Source of the DNA: Patescibacteria group bacterium
GTDB taxonomy: Bacteria > Patescibacteriota > Microgenomatia > UBA1400 > CG1-02-47-37
Reading direction: 5' to 3'
Length of the DNA: 64,000 bases
Assembly (NCBI GenBank): GCA_038065055.1
Contig: JBBTRT010000005.1
Location: forward strand, 2,706 to 66,705
Shown: positions 32,099 to 63,202 of the stretch, one piece after another
Layout of the letters: each line of letters starts with the position of its first letter
Position numbering within the stretch: position 1 is the first letter of the stretch
Made by a program: the position numbers and the translations under genes
Notes under the pieces: model-generated
Seen by the model: the letters and a program-made list of their open reading frames with translations, nothing else
Databases searched by the model: none
Told to the model about the DNA's origin: nothing

Positions 32099-32121
32099 CC
32101 TACAAGGACGGACCTTGTAGG
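32099..32121. repeat. REP-like palindrome (CCTACAAGG ACGGA CCTTGTAGG), perfect 9-bp stem
   Basis: Read directly. It lies 4 nt after the stop of 31627-32094, between convergent genes. Confidence 0.8.
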
Positions 32122-46562: not shown

Positions 46563-47030
46563 ATGAGCTTAAATGAAACCTCGGTTACGTATTCTGAAAA
46601 AATAAATCCTGTTATCAAGGCGGCGGCGGCTTTCGTTCCGGTCAGTGATTATTGGCAATTAAGATTAAGCACAGCAATTCCAACTGATGAAGTAGGGCAA
46701 ATTACCCGGGCAGTCAGGGCAACCAATGAATGGGCTCGGAATTTTGGCAAATCAGAAAAGATTAATCAGCCGATTAAGCCATCTTTAAATCCGATCGTGA
46801 TCGCTTCAAGAAAATTTCTCCAGCGTATCCCTTTGGAGGAATATTTACCGGCCCGGCATGAAGTAATTGTAGAGGCAATTGCATCCAGTAACAAAAGGGT
46901 GGCTTATCTTGAAGAATCAATTGGTTATGATGCTGAACTAGATAAAGCTGAATGTGAAGGGATGGCTCTTTCAAGTGAACTTAGTATGACTACAGCAGCA
47001 ATAAAGGCAGTCAACCAGCCTCCGGCTTGA
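46563..47030 (+). CDS. hypothetical protein (155 aa)
   Basis: Clean ORF. I recognise no family. Confidence 0.5.
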   Translation: MSLNETSVTYSEKINPVIKAAAAFVPVSDYWQLRLSTAIPTDEVGQITRAVRATNEWARNFGKSEKINQPIKPSLNPIVIASRKFLQRIPLEEYLPARHEVIVEAIASSNKRVAYLEESIGYDAELDKAECEGMALSSELSMTTAAIKAVNQPPA

Positions 47031-47035
47031 TTCAA

Positions 47036-47057
47036 CCTGCAGGGCTGTCCTCGTAGG
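47036..47057. repeat. REP-like palindrome, degenerate (CCTGCAGGG CTGT CCTCGTAGG), immediately 5' of the RayT-like gene promoter
   Basis: Read directly. It abuts TATAGT (47060-47065). Confidence 0.7.
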
Positions 47058-47219
47058 TGTATAGTTAAAGTAATGCCGGCAAAAAATAGTCTTAAGAATT
47101 ATTCCCCTGAGGCTTACTACCATGTTTATAATCGCGGAGTTGCCAAACAACCTATTTTTCTTGACGAGCAAGATTTTAAAACCTTTTTATCTTACCTTAA
47201 ATTTTACTTGACTACTCCC

Positions 47220-47246
47220 AACCTTCAAGGACTGTCCTTGAAGGTT
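47220..47246. repeat. REP-like palindrome, perfect 13-bp arms (AACCTTCAAGGAC T GTCCTTGAAGGTT), inside the RayT-like ORF (encodes NLQGLSLKV)
   Basis: Read directly. Confidence 0.85.
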
Positions 47247-47525
47247 GCCCCCTCAAGAAAACTAAAAAACTATACCGATCAAATTAAGCTGCTTGCCTAT
47301 TGTTTAATGCCAAACCACTTTCATTTTTTTATTTTTCAAAAAGAAGCAAATTCAATGACTGAATTCATTAGCTCGATAAGTACAAAATATTCAATGTATT
47401 TTAACAAAAAATACAAATGCGTCGGCCATGTTTTCCAAGGAAGATATAAAGCATTAACGGTAATAAATGAGAATCAGTTTATTTATCTGTCCAAATATAT
47501 CCACCAAAATCCCTTAGATATTTTA

Positions 47526-47548
47526 CCTACAGGGACTGTCCTTGAAGG
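47526..47548. repeat. REP-like palindrome (CCTACAGGGACTGTCCTTGAAGG) inside the RayT-like ORF (encodes PTGTVLEG)
   Basis: Read directly. It is identical over 26 nt to the copy at 47737-47762. Confidence 0.85.
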
Positions 47549-47736
47549 TTATAAATTCTCCAGCTATCAAAATTATCTAGGTTTGTATAATCAGGCTTGG
47601 ATAAATAAGGATGAAATTTTATGCTATTTCAATCAAAATCCAACTAAACAATCTTATAAAGTTTTTGTCGAAGAATCAGATGAAAGAGATTTACCTATGA
47701 TTAAAAATATTACCTTGGACTTCGAATAATAATGCG

Positions 47737-47759
47737 CCTACAGGGACTGTCCTTGAAGG
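47737..47759. repeat. REP-like palindrome (CCTACAGGGACTGTCCTTGAAGG) 3' of the RayT-like gene; it overlaps the last codons and the stop of murA on the other strand
   Basis: Read directly. MurA ends ...NNLQGQSL* and its TAG is the complement of 47738-47740. Confidence 0.85.
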
Positions 47760-49000
47760 TTATTTATTTTAGCACCAAGGGCCTGCAAATGGCCGATAAA
47801 GTTTTCGTAACCCCGGTTAAGATGCTCCACTCCGGTCAACACAGTTTCCCCCCGGGCACACAAGCCGGCTAAAACCAAAGTGGCGCCGGCGCGGATATCC
47901 GGAATCGTTAATTTTTGCCCCTGAAGCTTGGCCGGACCAATAATTTTAATGGATCCGGGCATCTGACTAATCTTGGCACCCATGGCTAGTAGCAGAGGCA
48001 CAAACTGAAACCGGTGAGGAAAAATAGTATCCGTGACCTGTGACTGGCCCTGAAACTGAGTAGCGAGAACTGACCATAGTGGCTGCCAATCAGTCATAAA
48101 GCCTGGGTGCGGAGCGGTCTTAATGTTAACCGCACGTAACGGTTGATGATAGTAAAAACGAATCCCCTCGCTTAAAACTTTAAAACCCGCGCCAATTTCG
48201 GTTAATTTGGTTAAAAAAGCGGTTAAATCTTGTTCCCGGGCATGCTTGACCAGAATATTTCCTTGAGTAATCAAAGCGGCAATGGCATAGGAGACTGCTT
48301 CATTGCGATCCGGCATTACCGAGTAACTGGCTGAACCTAAGTCTTTAACGCCGTTAATAATGATCGTCCGGGGCGCTTGCCTGGTTATTTTGGCGCCCAT
48401 TTGAGTTAAAAAAGCAATTAAGTCATCGACTTCCGGTTCCAAAGCGCAATTTTTAAGGATGGTTTTCCCTCGGGCCAAGACAGCGGCCATAATTAAAGTT
48501 TCTGTGCCGGTGTGGGTAGGCTCGGGAAAAGTATAATTTCCGCCTTTTAAAACAGGACAAGTGGCGTAAATTAATTGGTTTTTGAGCTTAATTTTGGCGC
48601 CTAAGGCCTGCAGTCCGGCAAAGTGCCAGTTTAAGCGGCGCTCCCCGATTTGGTCGCCGCCGGGCAAAGGCATGATTGCCTGCTGAAACCGGGCCAAAAG
48701 CGGAGCTAAAAATAAACTGGAAGCCCGCGAGGCCTGACCCAAACTTTGCGGCACAGTAAAAGACTGAAGGTTATCTGCCTGAAGTTTAAAATAGTTAGCG
48801 TCAGCCTTAACTTGGCCGCCTAGCTGAAGAATAATTTCTTTGACCAACTCAACATCGGCAATGCGGCAAACATTGGTTAAGTTAACTTCCCTATGGCTCA
48901 ACAACGAAGCAATCATCAGTTTAAAAGCAGAGTTTTTGGCACCGCTTAAACTGACCGTGCCGTTTAAACGTTGGCCGCCTTGAATAGTAATTTCAGCCAT
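47738..49000 (-). CDS. murA: UDP-N-acetylglucosamine 1-carboxyvinyltransferase
   Basis: MAEITIQGGQRLNGTVSLSGAKNSAFKLMIASLL; 420 aa. Confidence 0.9.
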   Translation of the reverse strand: MAEITIQGGQRLNGTVSLSGAKNSAFKLMIASLLSHREVNLTNVCRIADVELVKEIILQLGGQVKADANYFKLQADNLQSFTVPQSLGQASRASSLFLAPLLARFQQAIMPLPGGDQIGERRLNWHFAGLQALGAKIKLKNQLIYATCPVLKGGNYTFPEPTHTGTETLIMAAVLARGKTILKNCALEPEVDDLIAFLTQMGAKITRQAPRTIIINGVKDLGSASYSVMPDRNEAVSYAIAALITQGNILVKHAREQDLTAFLTKLTEIGAGFKVLSEGIRFYYHQPLRAVNIKTAPHPGFMTDWQPLWSVLATQFQGQSQVTDTIFPHRFQFVPLLLAMGAKISQMPGSIKIIGPAKLQGQKLTIPDIRAGATLVLAGLCARGETVLTGVEHLNRGYENFIGHLQALGAKINNLQGQSL

Positions 49001-49784: not shown

Positions 49785-51163
49785 AGCCAGTTATTGCCGG
49801 CGCCAAGGGTAATTAAGATATCGCCGGAACGGCAATAGTGTTTGATAAAGGCTAAAGTAGCGGCTTTACCAGGGCAATAATAAACTTGGCGGTGGTGTTT
49901 AGCAACCGAGTTGCTAAAACTTTTACTGGTTAAGCCTAAGTTGTCTTTTTCCCGGGCAGAAGCAAAAATGTCGTTGATCACGACCAGGTCGGCCTGGCTA
50001 AAACTTTGACTAAACTCAGTTAACAAAGCTTTGGTACGGGAATAAGTGTGTGACTGGAAAATAGGAATCAAACGGCGGTCAGGAAACCATTCCCGGGCGG
50101 CTTGCAGAACGGCTTTAATTTCAGTCGGGTGATGAGCATAATCATCATAAAGACTAATTTTCTTAACCTCACTAATTAATTCAAACCGACGCTTAACCCC
50201 GGTAAAAGTTTTTATACCAGCTTGCAATTTTTGGGTTGAGGCCCCTAAATTATAGGCCGTTACTATGGCGGCAGTAGCATTTAAAAGATTGTAATTGCCG
50301 GGCAGAGTTAAAATCATTTCCGGCCAAGTTACGCCTTTGACTTTAAGGGTAAAAAACTGTTTTTTATCGGCCAAATGATGGCTAATAATCTGCCAATCGG
50401 CCAAAGGAGAAAAACCATAAGTGATCACCGGGCGGTTTAAACGGCTGATAAATTGCTTGCAGCGGGGATTATCGATATTAATAATAATAAAGCCATTTTT
50501 AGGAACTGGCTGTAAAAACTTAATAAACGAGTCAAAAACTGAATCTAAAGACGGATAAACATCCGGGTGATCGTATTCCAGATTAGTAATTACTGCCATA
50601 TAAGGAGTTAAATAATGAAACCGGGGAGTTAAATTTTTTAGCGGGTCGGTGATGAATTCATCGGCTTCCGCCACAAAATACGGGGAACGGGAATTAAAGC
50701 GGCCAGGGGCCGGTAAGGAAAAAATCGCGCCGGCGCCAACCGCATAACTGGGCTGAAAGCCGGCCGCAGTTAACAGATGAGCAATCAGGGCCGAAACAGT
50801 TGATTTGCCGCCAACGCCGCTAACCGCCACGACCTGTTTACCGCTGGAAAATAGACCGAGCGCCTGAGCATGGCTTAAAACCGGAATATTTTTAGCTTGA
50901 GCGGCCACCACTTCCGGATTATCACTCCCCTGGTGAGCGCCGGTATAAATAACTAAATCACAATTACGGGGCAAATTTTTTGGGGAAAAACCCAGCTTAA
51001 CTTTCAACTTCCTGGTTTTTAAAACCGCATCGGTAGGAAACACTTCAGCGGTGTCGCTGCCGGAGACTTTTTTACCTAAATCTAAAGCGCACAAAGCCAG
51101 GGCAGTCATACCGACGCCTTTAATCCCGGTAAAATGAATGGTTTTAAGTTTTTTTAAATTCAC
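49739..51163 (-). CDS. murC: UDP-N-acetylmuramate--L-alanine ligase
   Basis: IHFTGIKGVGMTALA and P-loop SGVGGKSTVSA. Confidence 0.9.
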   Translation of the reverse strand: MNLKKLKTIHFTGIKGVGMTALALCALDLGKKVSGSDTAEVFPTDAVLKTRKLKVKLGFSPKNLPRNCDLVIYTGAHQGSDNPEVVAAQAKNIPVLSHAQALGLFSSGKQVVAVSGVGGKSTVSALIAHLLTAAGFQPSYAVGAGAIFSLPAPGRFNSRSPYFVAEADEFITDPLKNLTPRFHYLTPYMAVITNLEYDHPDVYPSLDSVFDSFIKFLQPVPKNGFIIINIDNPRCKQFISRLNRPVITYGFSPLADWQIISHHLADKKQFFTLKVKGVTWPEMILTLPGNYNLLNATAAIVTAYNLGASTQKLQAGIKTFTGVKRRFELISEVKKISLYDDYAHHPTEIKAVLQAAREWFPDRRLIPIFQSHTYSRTKALLTEFSQSFSQADLVVINDIFASAREKDNLGLTSKSFSNSVAKHHRQVYYCPGKAATLAFIKHYCRSGDILITLGAGNNWLWHKEILWTLSKIKS

Positions 51164-52238
51164 CGGCTGATAATGATTGATAAAGAACTAAACCGCTAGC
51201 CAGCAAGGCTTTAGCACCTAAAGTGACGCCCGGCATCACCGAAGAGTTAATTCCCAATTGGCTTCCTTTTGCCAAAATAGCGCCTAGCTTTGACTTGCCG
51301 GGAAGAACCTCTTTTTTGTCAAACCGCATATTGGCCAGCCGAGCGCCGGAGCCTAAATTGCTCCCCCCTTCGATAATGGAATCACCCACATAATTGGTGT
51401 GGAAAAAATTATTCGGGCCAACGTAACTCCGGGCAATTTCCGTGTAATATCCGACCGTAGTACCGGATTCAATGATAGAATCCCGAATCAAACAGTGGTG
51501 GCCGATGATAACTTTGGGGCCAATATAGGAATTAATAATCTGGGCGCCGGGGTAAATCTTGGCGGTTTTATCGATGATAGATTTACCGGTTAATAAACCG
51601 GCAGTTAAATCCAAAATTTGCCAAGGATATTTTAGTTGATAGAATTTGCCGGCGGCTTTAACCAGAAGCGAATTGGTTAATTGATTTAAACCGGCTTCGT
51701 AATCAGCTTTAAGCACGGCAATAAATTCTTCGATTTTAGGAAAATAGTCTAAGACGATTTTTAACCACTCGCTCGGTTCTTTTCCCTCGGCAGGCTTTTC
51801 GATGACCTGCAGGGACTGTCCCTGCAGGCTGAAAAAACCGCCGGTGAGACCGGGATGGCTCTTGATACCGGTAAAAATTACTTTATCAGGAGTAGTTTTT
51901 ATTGCTCGTGAAAATTGCTGAATAATTTTAGGGTCAATCCAGTCATCTCCGTTAACTACTACGGTCGGGCCTACAAGGTCCAACCTTGCAGATAAGACGG
52001 CGCCGGCCATGCCGTTGGGTGCGGGTTGGACGACTATCTTGGCTTTGGGAAAAAGTTTAGCAACTGCAGTTTTGTCTTTAGGATTAACCACGATAATTAT
52101 TTGGCTGGGTTTTAAACCCTGACAATTAGCCACAACATGCTCCAGCAAAGTCTTGCCTAAAAACGGCAATAAAGGCTTACTGGTAACAAGCGGCTGAAAC
52201 CGTTTACCGATGCCGGCGGCTAAAACTAGTAATTGCAT
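51144..52238 (-). CDS. sugar-phosphate nucleotidyltransferase with a C-terminal left-handed beta-helix (GlmU-like)
   Basis: LVLAAGIGKRFQPLVTSKPLLPF N-terminal signature, VIEKP motif and C-terminal hexapeptide-repeat region (IGPKVIIGHHCLIRDSIIESGTTVG...). Confidence 0.75.
   Translation of the reverse strand: MQLLVLAAGIGKRFQPLVTSKPLLPFLGKTLLEHVVANCQGLKPSQIIIVVNPKDKTAVAKLFPKAKIVVQPAPNGMAGAVLSARLDLVGPTVVVNGDDWIDPKIIQQFSRAIKTTPDKVIFTGIKSHPGLTGGFFSLQGQSLQVIEKPAEGKEPSEWLKIVLDYFPKIEEFIAVLKADYEAGLNQLTNSLLVKAAGKFYQLKYPWQILDLTAGLLTGKSIIDKTAKIYPGAQIINSYIGPKVIIGHHCLIRDSIIESGTTVGYYTEIARSYVGPNNFFHTNYVGDSIIEGGSNLGSGARLANMRFDKKEVLPGKSKLGAILAKGSQLGINSSVMPGVTLGAKALLASGLVLYQSLSAGEFKKT
51806..51828. repeat. REP-like palindrome, perfect (CCTGCAGGGAC T GTCCCTGCAGG), in frame inside the GlmU-like gene (encodes SLQGQSLQV)
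   Basis: Read directly. Both arms contain CCTGCAGG. Confidence 0.85.
51970..51992. repeat. possible degenerate REP-like copy (CCTACAAGG TCCAA CCTTGCAGA) in the same gene
   Basis: 7 of 9 stem positions can pair. It resembles the 32099 copy. Confidence 0.35.
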
Positions 52239-63080: not shown

Positions 63081-63111
63081 GTTAGCCTGCGAGGAGAGTC
63101 CTCTTAGGCTA
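63081..63111. repeat. REP-like palindrome (TTAGCCTGCGAGGA GAG TCCTCTTAGGCTAA), degenerate
   Basis: Read directly. Confidence 0.7.
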
Positions 63112-63137
63112 ATAATTACTTCTATCTACATCAAGTA

Positions 63138-63162
63138 CCTGCAAGGAGAGTCCTCGCAGAGG
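63138..63162. repeat. REP-like palindrome (CCTGCAAGGA GAG TCCTCGCAGAGG), degenerate with a 1-nt bulge
   Basis: Read directly. Confidence 0.6.
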
Positions 63163-63168
63163 TTCACA

Positions 63169-63202
63169 ACTACGAGGTTGGACCTTGTAGGTTACTTGTA
63201 GG
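63169..63202. repeat. REP-like palindrome (ACTACGAGG TTGGA CCTTGTAGG) plus a duplicated right half-site CTTGTAGG
   Basis: Read directly. Confidence 0.6.

What the first reader, a model, noticed from the sequence alone, without database searches (positions are those of the whole stretch)
51806..51992. Perfect REP-like palindrome translated in frame inside the GlmU-like nucleotidyltransferase gene, with no obvious length change (behaviour reminiscent of Rickettsia palindromic elements)
CCTGCAGGGACTGTCCCTGCAGG (11-bp arms) lies inside the ORF and encodes SLQGQSLQV immediately before the conserved (V/I)EKP motif. In related sugar nucleotidyltransferases that position is, as I recall, a beta-hairpin of about the same length.

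The palindrome therefore seems to occupy a structural hairpin and does not lengthen the protein. A second, degenerate copy (51970-51992, encoding ARLDLVGP) lies 140 bp away in the same gene.

In-frame palindromic elements in housekeeping genes are known for Rickettsia RPEs. Seeing the same behaviour for a RayT-associated hairpin would link the two phenomena.
Basis: partly seen in the sequence, partly recalled or inferred. Interest (0 to 1): 0.6.

Follow-up and report, generated by a model that had tools for sequence, protein, structure and literature searches.

The report
In-frame REP hairpins kept inside a gene
A 23-base perfect palindrome inside a cell-wall sugar-activating enzyme gene of a Beckwithbacteria (CPR) genome is a true copy of the genome's transposase-associated REP hairpin family, translated as a surface loop without lengthening the protein and kept as a hairpin at the same two codon positions in about ten species.

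Summary
CCTGCAGGGACTGTCCCTGCAGG (51806-51828) lies in frame in a 364-aa ST0452/GlmU-like nucleotidyltransferase gene and encodes LQGQSLQ, the tip of a beta-hairpin just before VIEKP. A weaker copy lies at 51971-51991.

It is not an RPE-like insertion. Orthologues have the same length at both sites. It is also not chance. The sequence belongs to a GTAG-type REP family that flanks, and sits twice inside, a syntenic single-copy RayT-like Y1 transposase 4 kb away. The family also occurs intergenically.

Most palindrome-bearing orthologues (13 read at site 1, 13 at site 2) carry a palindrome at these two positions, although synonymous sites are near saturation. About 86% of stem positions pair, against 25-52% in slid controls. 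Compensatory changes include a purely synonymous one. The loop switches among the discrete REP subfamilies, in either orientation. Two relatives with no RayT or REPs in the locus have no palindromes.

Best reading: these are old intragenic REPs, kept up like the rest of the REP population. What keeps them up is not shown.

Intragenic REPs and REP-donated TAG stops were described in 2013. This is therefore a new variant of a known kind, in a new phylum, notable for being length-neutral, orthologously conserved and covarying.

The parts
51806..51828 (-). Site 1: perfect 23-nt REP palindrome (subfamily a, core GGACAGTCC on the sense strand). It is read in frame 0 as L138-Q144 (LQGQSLQ), the tip of a beta-hairpin before VIEKP.
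51971..51991 (-). Site 2: imperfect REP copy (subfamily b, sense CTGCAAGGTTGGACCTTGTAG). It is read in frame 2 as S-A-R-L-D-L-V-G, at a helix end plus loop. The same site is a strong palindrome in orthologues.
51144..52238 (-). Host gene: 364-aa sugar-1-phosphate nucleotidyltransferase with a left-handed beta-helix acetyltransferase-like domain (ST0452 / archaeal-GlmU-like). It lies in the dcw/mur cluster.
47073..47729 (+). RayT-like Y1 (HUH) transposase, 218 aa. H82/H84 and Y142 (YIHxNP) are invariant. It is syntenic in 7 species.
47036..47057 (.). Degenerate REP 5' of RayT (CCTGCAGGGCTGTCCTCGTAGG, one base missing).
47219..47247 (+). REP inside RayT, site A: 14-nt perfect arms, frame 0, encodes NLQGLSLKV.
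47526..47548 (+). REP inside RayT, site B: frame 2, encodes PTGTVLEG.
47737..47759 (.). REP 3' of RayT. On the minus strand it also supplies the last residues (QGQSL) and the TAG stop of MurA (47738..49000).
32099..32121 (.). Intergenic REP (subfamily d, CCTACAAGGACGGACCTTGTAGG) between convergent ORFs.
63085..63192 (.). Intergenic cluster of three REPs (subfamilies c, c and b).

Best explanation
**What it is.** The palindrome is a true member of this lineage's GTAG-type REP population, the hairpins associated with a single syntenic RayT-like Y1 transposase. It is embedded in frame in a housekeeping gene.

**How it came to be there.** REP sequence took over two surface segments of the enzyme in the ancestor of one Beckwithbacteria clade. 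These are the tip of the beta-hairpin before (V/I)EKP and a helix-to-strand loop. The length did not change.

**Why the protein tolerates it.**
- Frame 0 of the REP reads L-Q-G-x-(S/T)-L-(K/Q), which fits a hairpin.
- Frame 2 reads A-x-(G/R)-x-x-L-x-G.
- The consensus CTA...TAG edge would give a stop in frame 0. It is replaced by CTG...CAG or CTT...AAG.

**What has happened since.** Both sites have been actively kept as hairpins. Stems are preserved by compensatory changes. The loop is repeatedly exchanged among the same few REP subfamilies found outside genes, in either orientation. I infer short length-preserving replacement, templated by other REP copies or produced by RayT strand transfer, rather than slow drift.

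**Shown and inferred.**
- Shown: family membership, orthologous conservation, covariation, subfamily switching, and absence of palindromes in two loci that have no RayT or REPs.
- Inferred: that RayT or REP-to-REP template switching is the maintaining agent, and whether the hairpin has any use to the host.
For: **1. Family membership**
- The site shares 20 of 23 bases with the REPs flanking RayT.
- In 248 kb of clade DNA there are 59 family copies, and 0 in shuffles.
- L165 site 2 is 21/21 identical to that genome's RayT-flank REP. L171 site 2 is 21/21 identical to the window's intergenic REP at 63170, read on the reverse strand.

**2. Same two sites in many species**
- Across the whole gene alignment the two sites are the top two palindrome centres. 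Their mean Watson-Crick pairs are 8.18 and 7.82 of 10, against a background of 2.19 +/- 1.18.

**3. More than protein constraint**
- With the residues fixed and codons resampled, P = 1e-4 to 1e-2 for most orthologues.

**4. Covariation**
- Site 1: 86% of cells pair, against 25-52% when the partners are slid. Four pairs change on both sides, including the purely synonymous CAA/TTG to CAG/CTG (7 versus 4 sequences). No shuffle of 500 reaches the covariation score.
- Site 2: 87% against 33-52%, with six pairs changed on both sides.

**5. Not passive inheritance**
- Four-fold degenerate sites are 39% identical between orthologues, against 28% expected at random.

**6. Subfamily switching**
- In 15 of 22 in-gene copies the 5-nt centre equals one of six extragenic centres, out of 512 possible. 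Different subfamilies and both orientations occur at the same site in different species.

**7. Natural controls**
- L167 and L172 have no RayT and no REP in 21 kb, and no palindrome at either site.
- All seven loci with RayT have palindromes.

**8. The REP family is older than the in-gene copies**
- More distant Beckwithbacteria (L010, L012) have the REPs but not the in-gene palindromes.
Against: - **L166.** All four RayT-linked REPs have changed their core to GGATAATCC, but the two in-gene copies have not. Coupling to that RayT's local REPs is therefore loose.
- **L004.** It has strong palindromes at both sites but only a lone REP where RayT normally sits.
- **L164.** It has REPs nearby but decayed in-gene sites.
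- **Census.** Apart from RayT itself and the MurA tail, no other gene in the 248 kb examined carries a copy. The loci were all chosen around this one gene, so a genome-wide census was not possible.
- **Mechanism.** Nothing here shows RayT binding or cutting these sites.
- **Strand.** G-T versus A-C mismatch counts give no strand signal.
- **Origin.** How REP sequence replaced the native codons without changing the length is not reconstructed.
Confidence: 0.62

Rival explanations
1. Gene-specific functional hairpin. The stems are kept by selection for an mRNA or DNA structure that serves this gene or the dcw/mur operon, for example a decay barrier, a processing site or a translational pause. 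RayT and the REP pool would be irrelevant to their upkeep.
For: - Stems are conserved with synonymous compensatory changes despite saturated synonymous sites.
- The in-gene copies do not follow the RayT-linked core change in L166.
- L004 keeps both palindromes without a local RayT.
Against: - Selection for a bare hairpin does not explain why loops match discrete extragenic REP subfamilies in 15 of 22 cases, or why whole 21-mers are identical to extragenic REPs.
- No T-run or terminator-like context follows the hairpins.
- There is no bias towards G-U on the sense strand.
- Both sites are lost together in the loci that lack REPs.
Confidence: 0.2
2. Neutral mutational by-product. Once a quasi-palindrome exists, intrastrand template switching during replication keeps correcting one arm against the other. 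The arms then co-evolve with no selection and no RayT involvement.
For: - Compensatory changes and loop inversions are what template switching produces.
- The encoded surface loops tolerate the resulting residue changes.
Against: - It does not explain the recurrent match to extragenic subfamilies.
- It does not explain the decay in L167, L164 and L172 while other lineages keep 9-11-bp stems.
- Other incidental palindromes in the same gene, at residues 163 and 255, are not sharpened in this way.
Confidence: 0.1
3. Recent RPE-like insertion. A mobile palindrome jumped into the gene in this genome and happens to fit.
For: It is a perfect palindrome that closely matches nearby RayT REPs.
Against: - There is no length gain relative to any orthologue.
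- The site is palindromic in about ten species that are 60-86% identical in protein sequence.
Confidence: 0.03
4. Chance, or purely protein-level convergence. The residues LQGxSLQ are needed for the hairpin, and the codons happen to pair.
For: - The residues are conserved.
- Frame-0 palindromes naturally encode an alternating hydrophobic and polar pattern around a Gly turn.
Against: - Codon-resampling P values are 1e-4 to 1e-2 per orthologue at two sites.
- One compensatory pair is purely synonymous.
- The same 21-mer is read in two different frames within one protein (L171).
- No family hits occur in shuffles.
Confidence: 0.02

Closest known systems
Intragenic GTAG-type REPs and REPtrons (Di Nocera, De Gregorio and Rocco 2013, PMC3733652)
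   Same: - Short GTAG-ended stem-loops associated with a RAYT gene that they flank.
- Some copies lie wholly inside ORFs and are translated.
- REP ends donate TAG stop codons, as with MurA here.
- Some genes carry two copies.
   Different: - The published cases are described as inserts that add residues, often dimers of 20-30 aa.
- Here single 21-23-nt units replace native loops with no length change.
- They sit at orthologous codons across many species and show compensatory evolution and subfamily switching.
- Two conserved copies lie inside the RayT ORF itself.
- The phylum (Patescibacteria/CPR) is not among those surveyed.
REPIN-RAYT systems (Bertels and Rainey; PMC3116915, PMC5581495)
   Same: - A single-copy, syntenic, vertically inherited Y1 transposase with a dispersed population of cognate hairpins.
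- Long persistence within a lineage.
   Different: - The copies are mostly single REPs rather than inverted doublets.
- Density is very low: a few loci in 64 kb.
- Copies occur inside coding sequence.
- The transposase scores below NCBIfam's REP_Tyr_transpos cut-off.
Rickettsia palindromic elements (RPE)
   Same: Palindromic repeats translated in frame in housekeeping proteins, at surface positions.
   Different: - RPEs are insertions that lengthen the protein.
- According to PMC3733652, RPE-4/6 belong to the CGTC-tagged superfamily, which has no dedicated transposase.
- The element here is GTAG-type, RayT-linked and length-neutral.
ST0452 (Sulfolobus tokodaii) / archaeal-type GlmU sugar-1-phosphate nucleotidylyltransferase-acetyltransferase (PDB 2GGO, 5Z09)
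   Same: - The host protein aligns end to end.
- It shares the hairpin followed by the IEKP motif.
   Different: - Scores are below the equivalog cut-offs.
- The substrate is unknown.
- The ST0452 hairpin is 2 residues longer and its sequence is not related to REPs.

Membership tests
GTAG-type REP family | Short (20-40 nt) stem-loop able to fold as single-stranded DNA | tested here: met
   11-nt arms, -12 kcal/mol, z = -5.4.
GTAG-type REP family | GTAG tetranucleotide at one end | tested here: inconclusive
   The family consensus is CTAC...GTAG, and site 2 ends in GTAG. The site 1 copy has GCAG instead, because TAG would be a stop in its frame.
GTAG-type REP family | Multiple dispersed copies, mainly extragenic | tested here: inconclusive
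   The window has intergenic copies at 32099-32121 and 63085-63192. There are 59 copies in 248 kb of clade DNA. No whole genome could be censused.
GTAG-type REP family | Association with a RAYT gene flanked by the same repeats | tested here: met
   RayT at 47073-47729 is flanked by copies at 47036 and 47737. The same four-copy layout, with spacing of about 186/304/209 nt, occurs in L078, L165, L166 and L168-L171.
RAYT (REP-associated tyrosine transposase) | Y1/HUH fold with HUH motif and catalytic Tyr | tested here: met
   Pfam Y1_Tnp scores 46.4 bits against a cut-off of 23. H82, H84 and Y142 are invariant in 37 homologues.
RAYT (REP-associated tyrosine transposase) | Reaches the curated NCBIfam REP_Tyr_transpos score | tested here: not met
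   40.6 bits against a cut-off of 80. Only residues 68-148 align.
RAYT (REP-associated tyrosine transposase) | Single copy, vertically inherited | tested here: inconclusive
   The gene sits in the same place (MurA/GlmS | RayT | CofD) in 7 species. Copy number per genome cannot be tested with these tools.
Rickettsia palindromic elements | In-frame insertion that lengthens the protein relative to orthologues | tested here: not met
   There is no extra length at either site.
Rickettsia palindromic elements | Sequence family (CGTC-tagged, per PMC3733652) | tested here: not met
   The ends are CTAC/GTAG, not CGTC.
GlmU / ST0452-like bifunctional enzyme (host gene) | N-terminal nucleotidyltransferase domain plus C-terminal hexapeptide beta-helix | tested here: met
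   Pfam NTP_transferase, NTP_transf_3 and Hexapep. Full-length alignment to 2GGO/5Z09. The AlphaFold model shows the expected secondary structure.
GlmU / ST0452-like bifunctional enzyme (host gene) | Equivalog-level score or demonstrated substrate | tested here: not met
   Arch_glmU scores 147 against a cut-off of 292, and glmU 84 against 367. Activity cannot be tested here.

The most novel reading that the evidence does not exclude
**Reading.** The two in-gene sites are fixed, length-constrained landing pads. Members of the REP population are repeatedly copied onto them, with whole-loop replacement in either orientation and no indel.

**What it would mean.**
- REPs in this lineage would be renewed by templated overwriting of existing hairpins (RayT strand transfer or REP-to-REP template switching), not only by insertion at new places.
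- The hairpins would be dual-coding elements kept by selection or drive at the nucleic-acid level, inside essential coding sequence of a minimal CPR genome.

**Why it would be useful.** The reading frame forbids indels, so every replacement event stays readable. That makes these sites a natural reporter for how REPs are maintained.
Probability: 0.3. Interest if true: 0.75.

Novelty: new variant of a known kind. Interest (0 to 1): 0.55.

Why it matters
- **Open question.** How REPs are spread and kept uniform by RAYTs has never been shown directly. REPs are usually treated as extragenic by definition.
- **What this case adds.** Two REP hairpins have survived inside an essential cell-wall precursor gene, and two more inside the transposase gene itself. 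This spans a divergence at which synonymous sites are nearly randomised. The stems are preserved by compensatory, partly synonymous changes. The loops are swapped among the genome-wide subfamilies.
- **Implication.** Some force acting on the nucleic acid maintains them within coding sequence.
- **A tractable comparison.** The same codons can be compared across many species, with RayT-less lineages as natural knock-outs, to separate selection, gene conversion and transposase action.
- **Phylogenetic reach.** It extends REP/RAYT systems to the Candidate Phyla Radiation.
- **For annotation.** Odd conserved peptides such as LQGxSLKV and AxGTVLxG in CPR proteins are translations of REPs.

Tried and rejected
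- **Metagenome scan**. Close orthologue DNA came from 12 exact-protein look-ups instead.
- **Genome scan**. It gave only a few Beckwithbacteria. The rest, mainly Daviesbacteria and Gottesmanbacteria, served as palindrome-free outgroups.
- **PDB search with RayT**. Only chance-level hits.
- **Strand inference**. I compared G-T with A-C mismatches, which would point to an RNA or single-strand bias. There was no signal: 5 versus 4-5 at site 1, and 5 versus 1 at site 2.
- **Distant RayT homologues** in L010 and L012. They are not flanked by this REP family.
- **Secondary palindrome peaks** in the gene at residues 163, 206 and 255. They come from residue-level symmetry, are present in RayT-less species too, and are not REP-like. 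Rejected as further sites.
- **Terminator or attenuator reading.** No T-run follows either hairpin.
- **Excisable unit.** I considered whether the two same-orientation copies 164 nt apart could bound an excisable element. Rejected, because excision would shift the frame of an essential-looking gene.
- **Peptide-based census.** A census of REP-encoded motifs in protein databases was not feasible, because the query would be too short for significance.

Full report
**1. The observation**

- The window has 42.7% G+C. Protein matches place it in Candidatus Beckwithbacteria (Patescibacteria/CPR).
- CCTGCAGGGACTGTCCCTGCAGG lies at 51806-51828, with 11-nt perfect arms.
- It sits inside the minus-strand ORF 51144..52238 (364 aa). 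This ORF has an N-terminal nucleotidyltransferase domain and a C-terminal hexapeptide beta-helix. Its closest solved relative is ST0452 of Sulfolobus tokodaii. It scores below the GlmU equivalog cut-offs.
- The codons AGC CTG CAG GGA CAG TCC CTG CAG GTC give SLQGQSLQV, directly before IEKP.
- Shuffled sequence gives no match. As single-stranded DNA the site folds at -12 kcal/mol, z = -5.4.
- The second copy reads CTGCAAGGTTGGACCTTGTAG on the sense strand at 51971-51991. It has 8 of 10 Watson-Crick pairs plus 2 G-T and encodes SARLDLVG.

**2. It belongs to a REP family tied to a RayT-like gene**

- Four kilobases away, ORF 47073-47729 is a Y1_Tnp protein. Its HUH motif (H82, H84) and the Tyr of YIHxNP (Y142) are invariant in homologues. 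One source names a homologue RayT. It scores below NCBIfam's curated REP_Tyr_transpos cut-off.
- The gene is flanked by copies at 47036-47057 and 47737-47759.
- It also contains two in-frame copies. One at 47219-47247 encodes NLQGLSLKV. One at 47526-47548 encodes PTGTVLEG.
- The 3' flank copy also supplies the last five residues and the TAG stop of MurA on the other strand.
- Intergenic copies lie at 32099-32121, between convergent ORFs, and in a cluster at 63085-63192.
- The family consensus is CTNCARGG-N5-CCYTGNAG, often CTAC...GTAG. That makes it GTAG-type in the sense of PMC3733652.

**3. Insertion or replacement**

- In the 50-orthologue alignment the segment has the same length everywhere in the close clade: GGYFDLQG(x)(S/T)L(K/Q)VVEKP.
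- It is within one residue of distant orthologues whose hairpin reads, for example, YLKVEGERVKGIVEKP.
- ST0452 is 2 residues longer at site 1 and 2 shorter at site 2.
- AlphaFold (pLDDT 95.9) puts L138-L143 between strands 134-137 and 144-147. Site 2 lies at a helix end plus loop.
An RPE-style insertion is excluded.

**4. Orthologue DNA**

Thirteen orthologue sequences were read at site 1 and 13 at site 2. They span 60-86% protein identity to the window.

- Most of them have a palindrome at the same codons of both sites, though not the same palindrome.
  - L004 site 1: ACCTTCAGGGA-GAG-TCCCTGAAGGT, 11-nt arms.
  - L001 site 1: CTTCAAGGT-CCA-ACCTTGAAG.
  - L165 site 2: CTACAGGGACTGTCCTTGTAG.
  - L169 site 2: 10 of 10 pairs.
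- Scanning every possible centre along the codon alignment, the two sites are the two highest peaks. Their means are 8.18 and 7.82 pairs of 10, against 2.19 +/- 1.18 for the background.
- With residues fixed and codons resampled, most orthologues reach P = 1e-4 to 1e-2 at each site.
- Pair counts:
  - Site 1 has 86% of cells paired, against 25-52% with slid partners. Four pairs change on both sides, and no shuffle of 500 reaches the covariation score.
  - Site 2 has 87% against 33-52%, with six such pairs.
  - One compensatory pair is purely synonymous: Gln CAA with Leu TTG (7 sequences) versus Gln CAG with Leu CTG (4 sequences).
  - Others couple a synonymous change to a residue change: Leu CTT with Lys AAG versus Leu CTG with Gln CAG, and Gly GGT with Thr ACC versus Gly GGA with Ser TCC.
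- Four-fold degenerate sites are only 39% identical between orthologues, against 28% expected at random. Stems of 8-11 bp cannot be passive leftovers.

**5. The in-gene copies behave as members of the REP pool**

- In L171 the two sites carry nearly the same 21-mer (19 of 21 bases). It is read in two different frames, as ATRSNLVG and as LQGPTLK.
- L171 site 2 is 21/21 identical to the window's intergenic REP at 63170, read on the reverse strand. L165 site 2 is 21/21 identical to its own RayT-flank REP.
- In 15 of 22 in-gene copies the 5-nt centre equals one of six centres seen in extragenic copies, out of 512 possible. The same orthologous site carries different subfamilies, in either orientation, in different species.
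- This pattern points to replacement from the pool, or to a shared and very specific constraint on loops. It does not look like drift.

**6. Link with RayT**

- RayT sits at the same place (MurA/GlmS | RayT | CofD) in the window and in L165, L166 and L168-L171. The four-copy layout has the same spacing in each. All seven loci have in-gene palindromes.
- L167 and L172 have no RayT there and no family copy in 21 kb. Neither has a palindrome at either site. L167 site 1 looks like a decayed subfamily-b copy, with 14 of 21 bases matching. L172 has a hairpin 4 residues shorter.
- Two cases do not fit cleanly.
  - L164 has REPs nearby, no local RayT, and decayed sites.
  - L004 has a lone REP where RayT should be, and both sites are strong.
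- In L166 all four RayT-linked copies share a derived core, GGATAATCC, which the in-gene copies lack. Homogenisation is therefore strongest locally.
- More distant Beckwithbacteria (L010, L012) have the REPs but no in-gene palindromes. The direction of transfer was from REP into gene.

**7. How it most likely works**

- Shown:
  - These are intragenic REPs.
  - They are ancient and length-neutral.
  - Their stems are actively maintained and their loops turn over.
- Inferred: upkeep is by short length-preserving replacement. This could be template switching between REP copies that share 8-9-nt arms, or RayT cleavage and rejoining. Selection on the protein then filters the outcome. Hence CTG/CAG or CTT/AAG appears in place of CTA/TAG in frame 0.
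- A host-level role for the hairpins is possible but unsupported. Examples would be mRNA processing in the mur operon or a RayT-dependent DNA function. No terminator context was found and there is no strand bias in wobble pairs.

**8. Comparison with what is known**

- Di Nocera et al. 2013 (PMC3733652) already report GTAG and CGTC REPs inside ORFs, sometimes twice per gene. They report REP ends providing TAG stops and REPs overlapping RAYT gene ends. They identify R. conorii RPE-4/6 as CGTC REPs.
- I did not find the following described, so as far as this library shows these points are new:
  - length-neutral single units that replace native loops;
  - conservation at orthologous codons across many species with covariation;
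  - switching among subfamilies at a fixed site;
  - two conserved in-frame copies inside the RayT ORF;
  - occurrence in CPR bacteria.

**9. Limits**

- All loci were fetched around one gene. The statement that no other housekeeping gene carries a copy covers only the window and the dcw neighbourhoods, 248 kb in total.
- The shuffle controls ignore relatedness. The slid controls and the codon-resampling test do not have this weakness.
- RayT activity on these sites is untested.

**10. Verdict**

It is a RayT-family hairpin, in frame, in a structural hairpin, with no length change.
- It is not an RPE-like insertion, and the general phenomenon is already published.
- It is a new variant of a known kind. 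Interest is 0.55.

Noticed in passing
window 47219-47247 and 47526-47548: The RayT ORF itself contains two in-frame REPs (NLQGLSLKV and PTGTVLEG). They are conserved at the same positions in homologues. Small indel variants occur at exactly these spots: some homologues lack 4 residues at site A, and others have 3-residue duplications such as LEGLEG or SLKSLK.
   Followed up: partly
window 47737-47759 (MurA 47738..49000, minus strand): MurA reads into the RayT-flank REP. It gains five C-terminal residues (QGQSL) and takes its TAG stop from the REP's GTAG end. L168 MurA stops before the REP.
   Followed up: yes
L025:2025, L034:10421, L038:10427, L054 and L058 (hairpin tip); L032:10590, L039:10539, L045:8600 (about residue 190): Daviesbacteria orthologues of the same enzyme carry a different dispersed repeat, CCTTCGACTTCGCTCAGGAC. 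It is a short stem with a conserved loop, found in 11 of 171 loci. It is inserted in frame at the tip of the same beta-hairpin, adding 8-10 residues (NPSTSLRTG). In the opposite orientation it sits at a second site (DPERSRRD). This is true RPE-like lengthening.
   Followed up: partly
window 63085-63192 and 32099-32121: Ordinary extragenic REPs of the same family. There is a three-hairpin cluster in one spacer (subfamilies c, c and b) and a single copy (subfamily d) between convergent ORFs.
   Followed up: yes
L004:10294; L007:16439-16705: Possible scars of RayT loss. L004 has a lone REP exactly where RayT sits in relatives. L007 keeps only a RayT fragment (residues 50-159), bounded by REP copies that correspond to the two internal sites.
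   Followed up: partly
window 47730-47740 versus L165, L166, L169-L171: The window (and L168) lacks the GlmS gene that lies between MurA and RayT in most relatives. RayT orientation also differs in L170. This suggests rearrangements at the REP-bounded RayT locus.
   Followed up: no
window 46563-47030: A 155-aa ORF with no Pfam match lies next to RayT. ORFs of similar size (157-163 aa) accompany RayT in L165, L169 and L171.
   Followed up: no
orthologues P0020, P0024, P0030, P0049, P0054, P0064 (L172:10001-11095): A subset of close orthologues has a hairpin 4 residues shorter (GGYFDGLKIVEKP). L003 is 2 residues shorter. These look like deletions centred on the palindrome.
   Followed up: partly
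L006 (CP011210), hairpin codons of the orthologue: A more distant Beckwithbacteria orthologue has an unrelated perfect 7+1+7 palindrome, GGTGACGCCGTCACC (GDAVT), at the same hairpin tip. This may be chance (rough P about 0.03).
   Followed up: no
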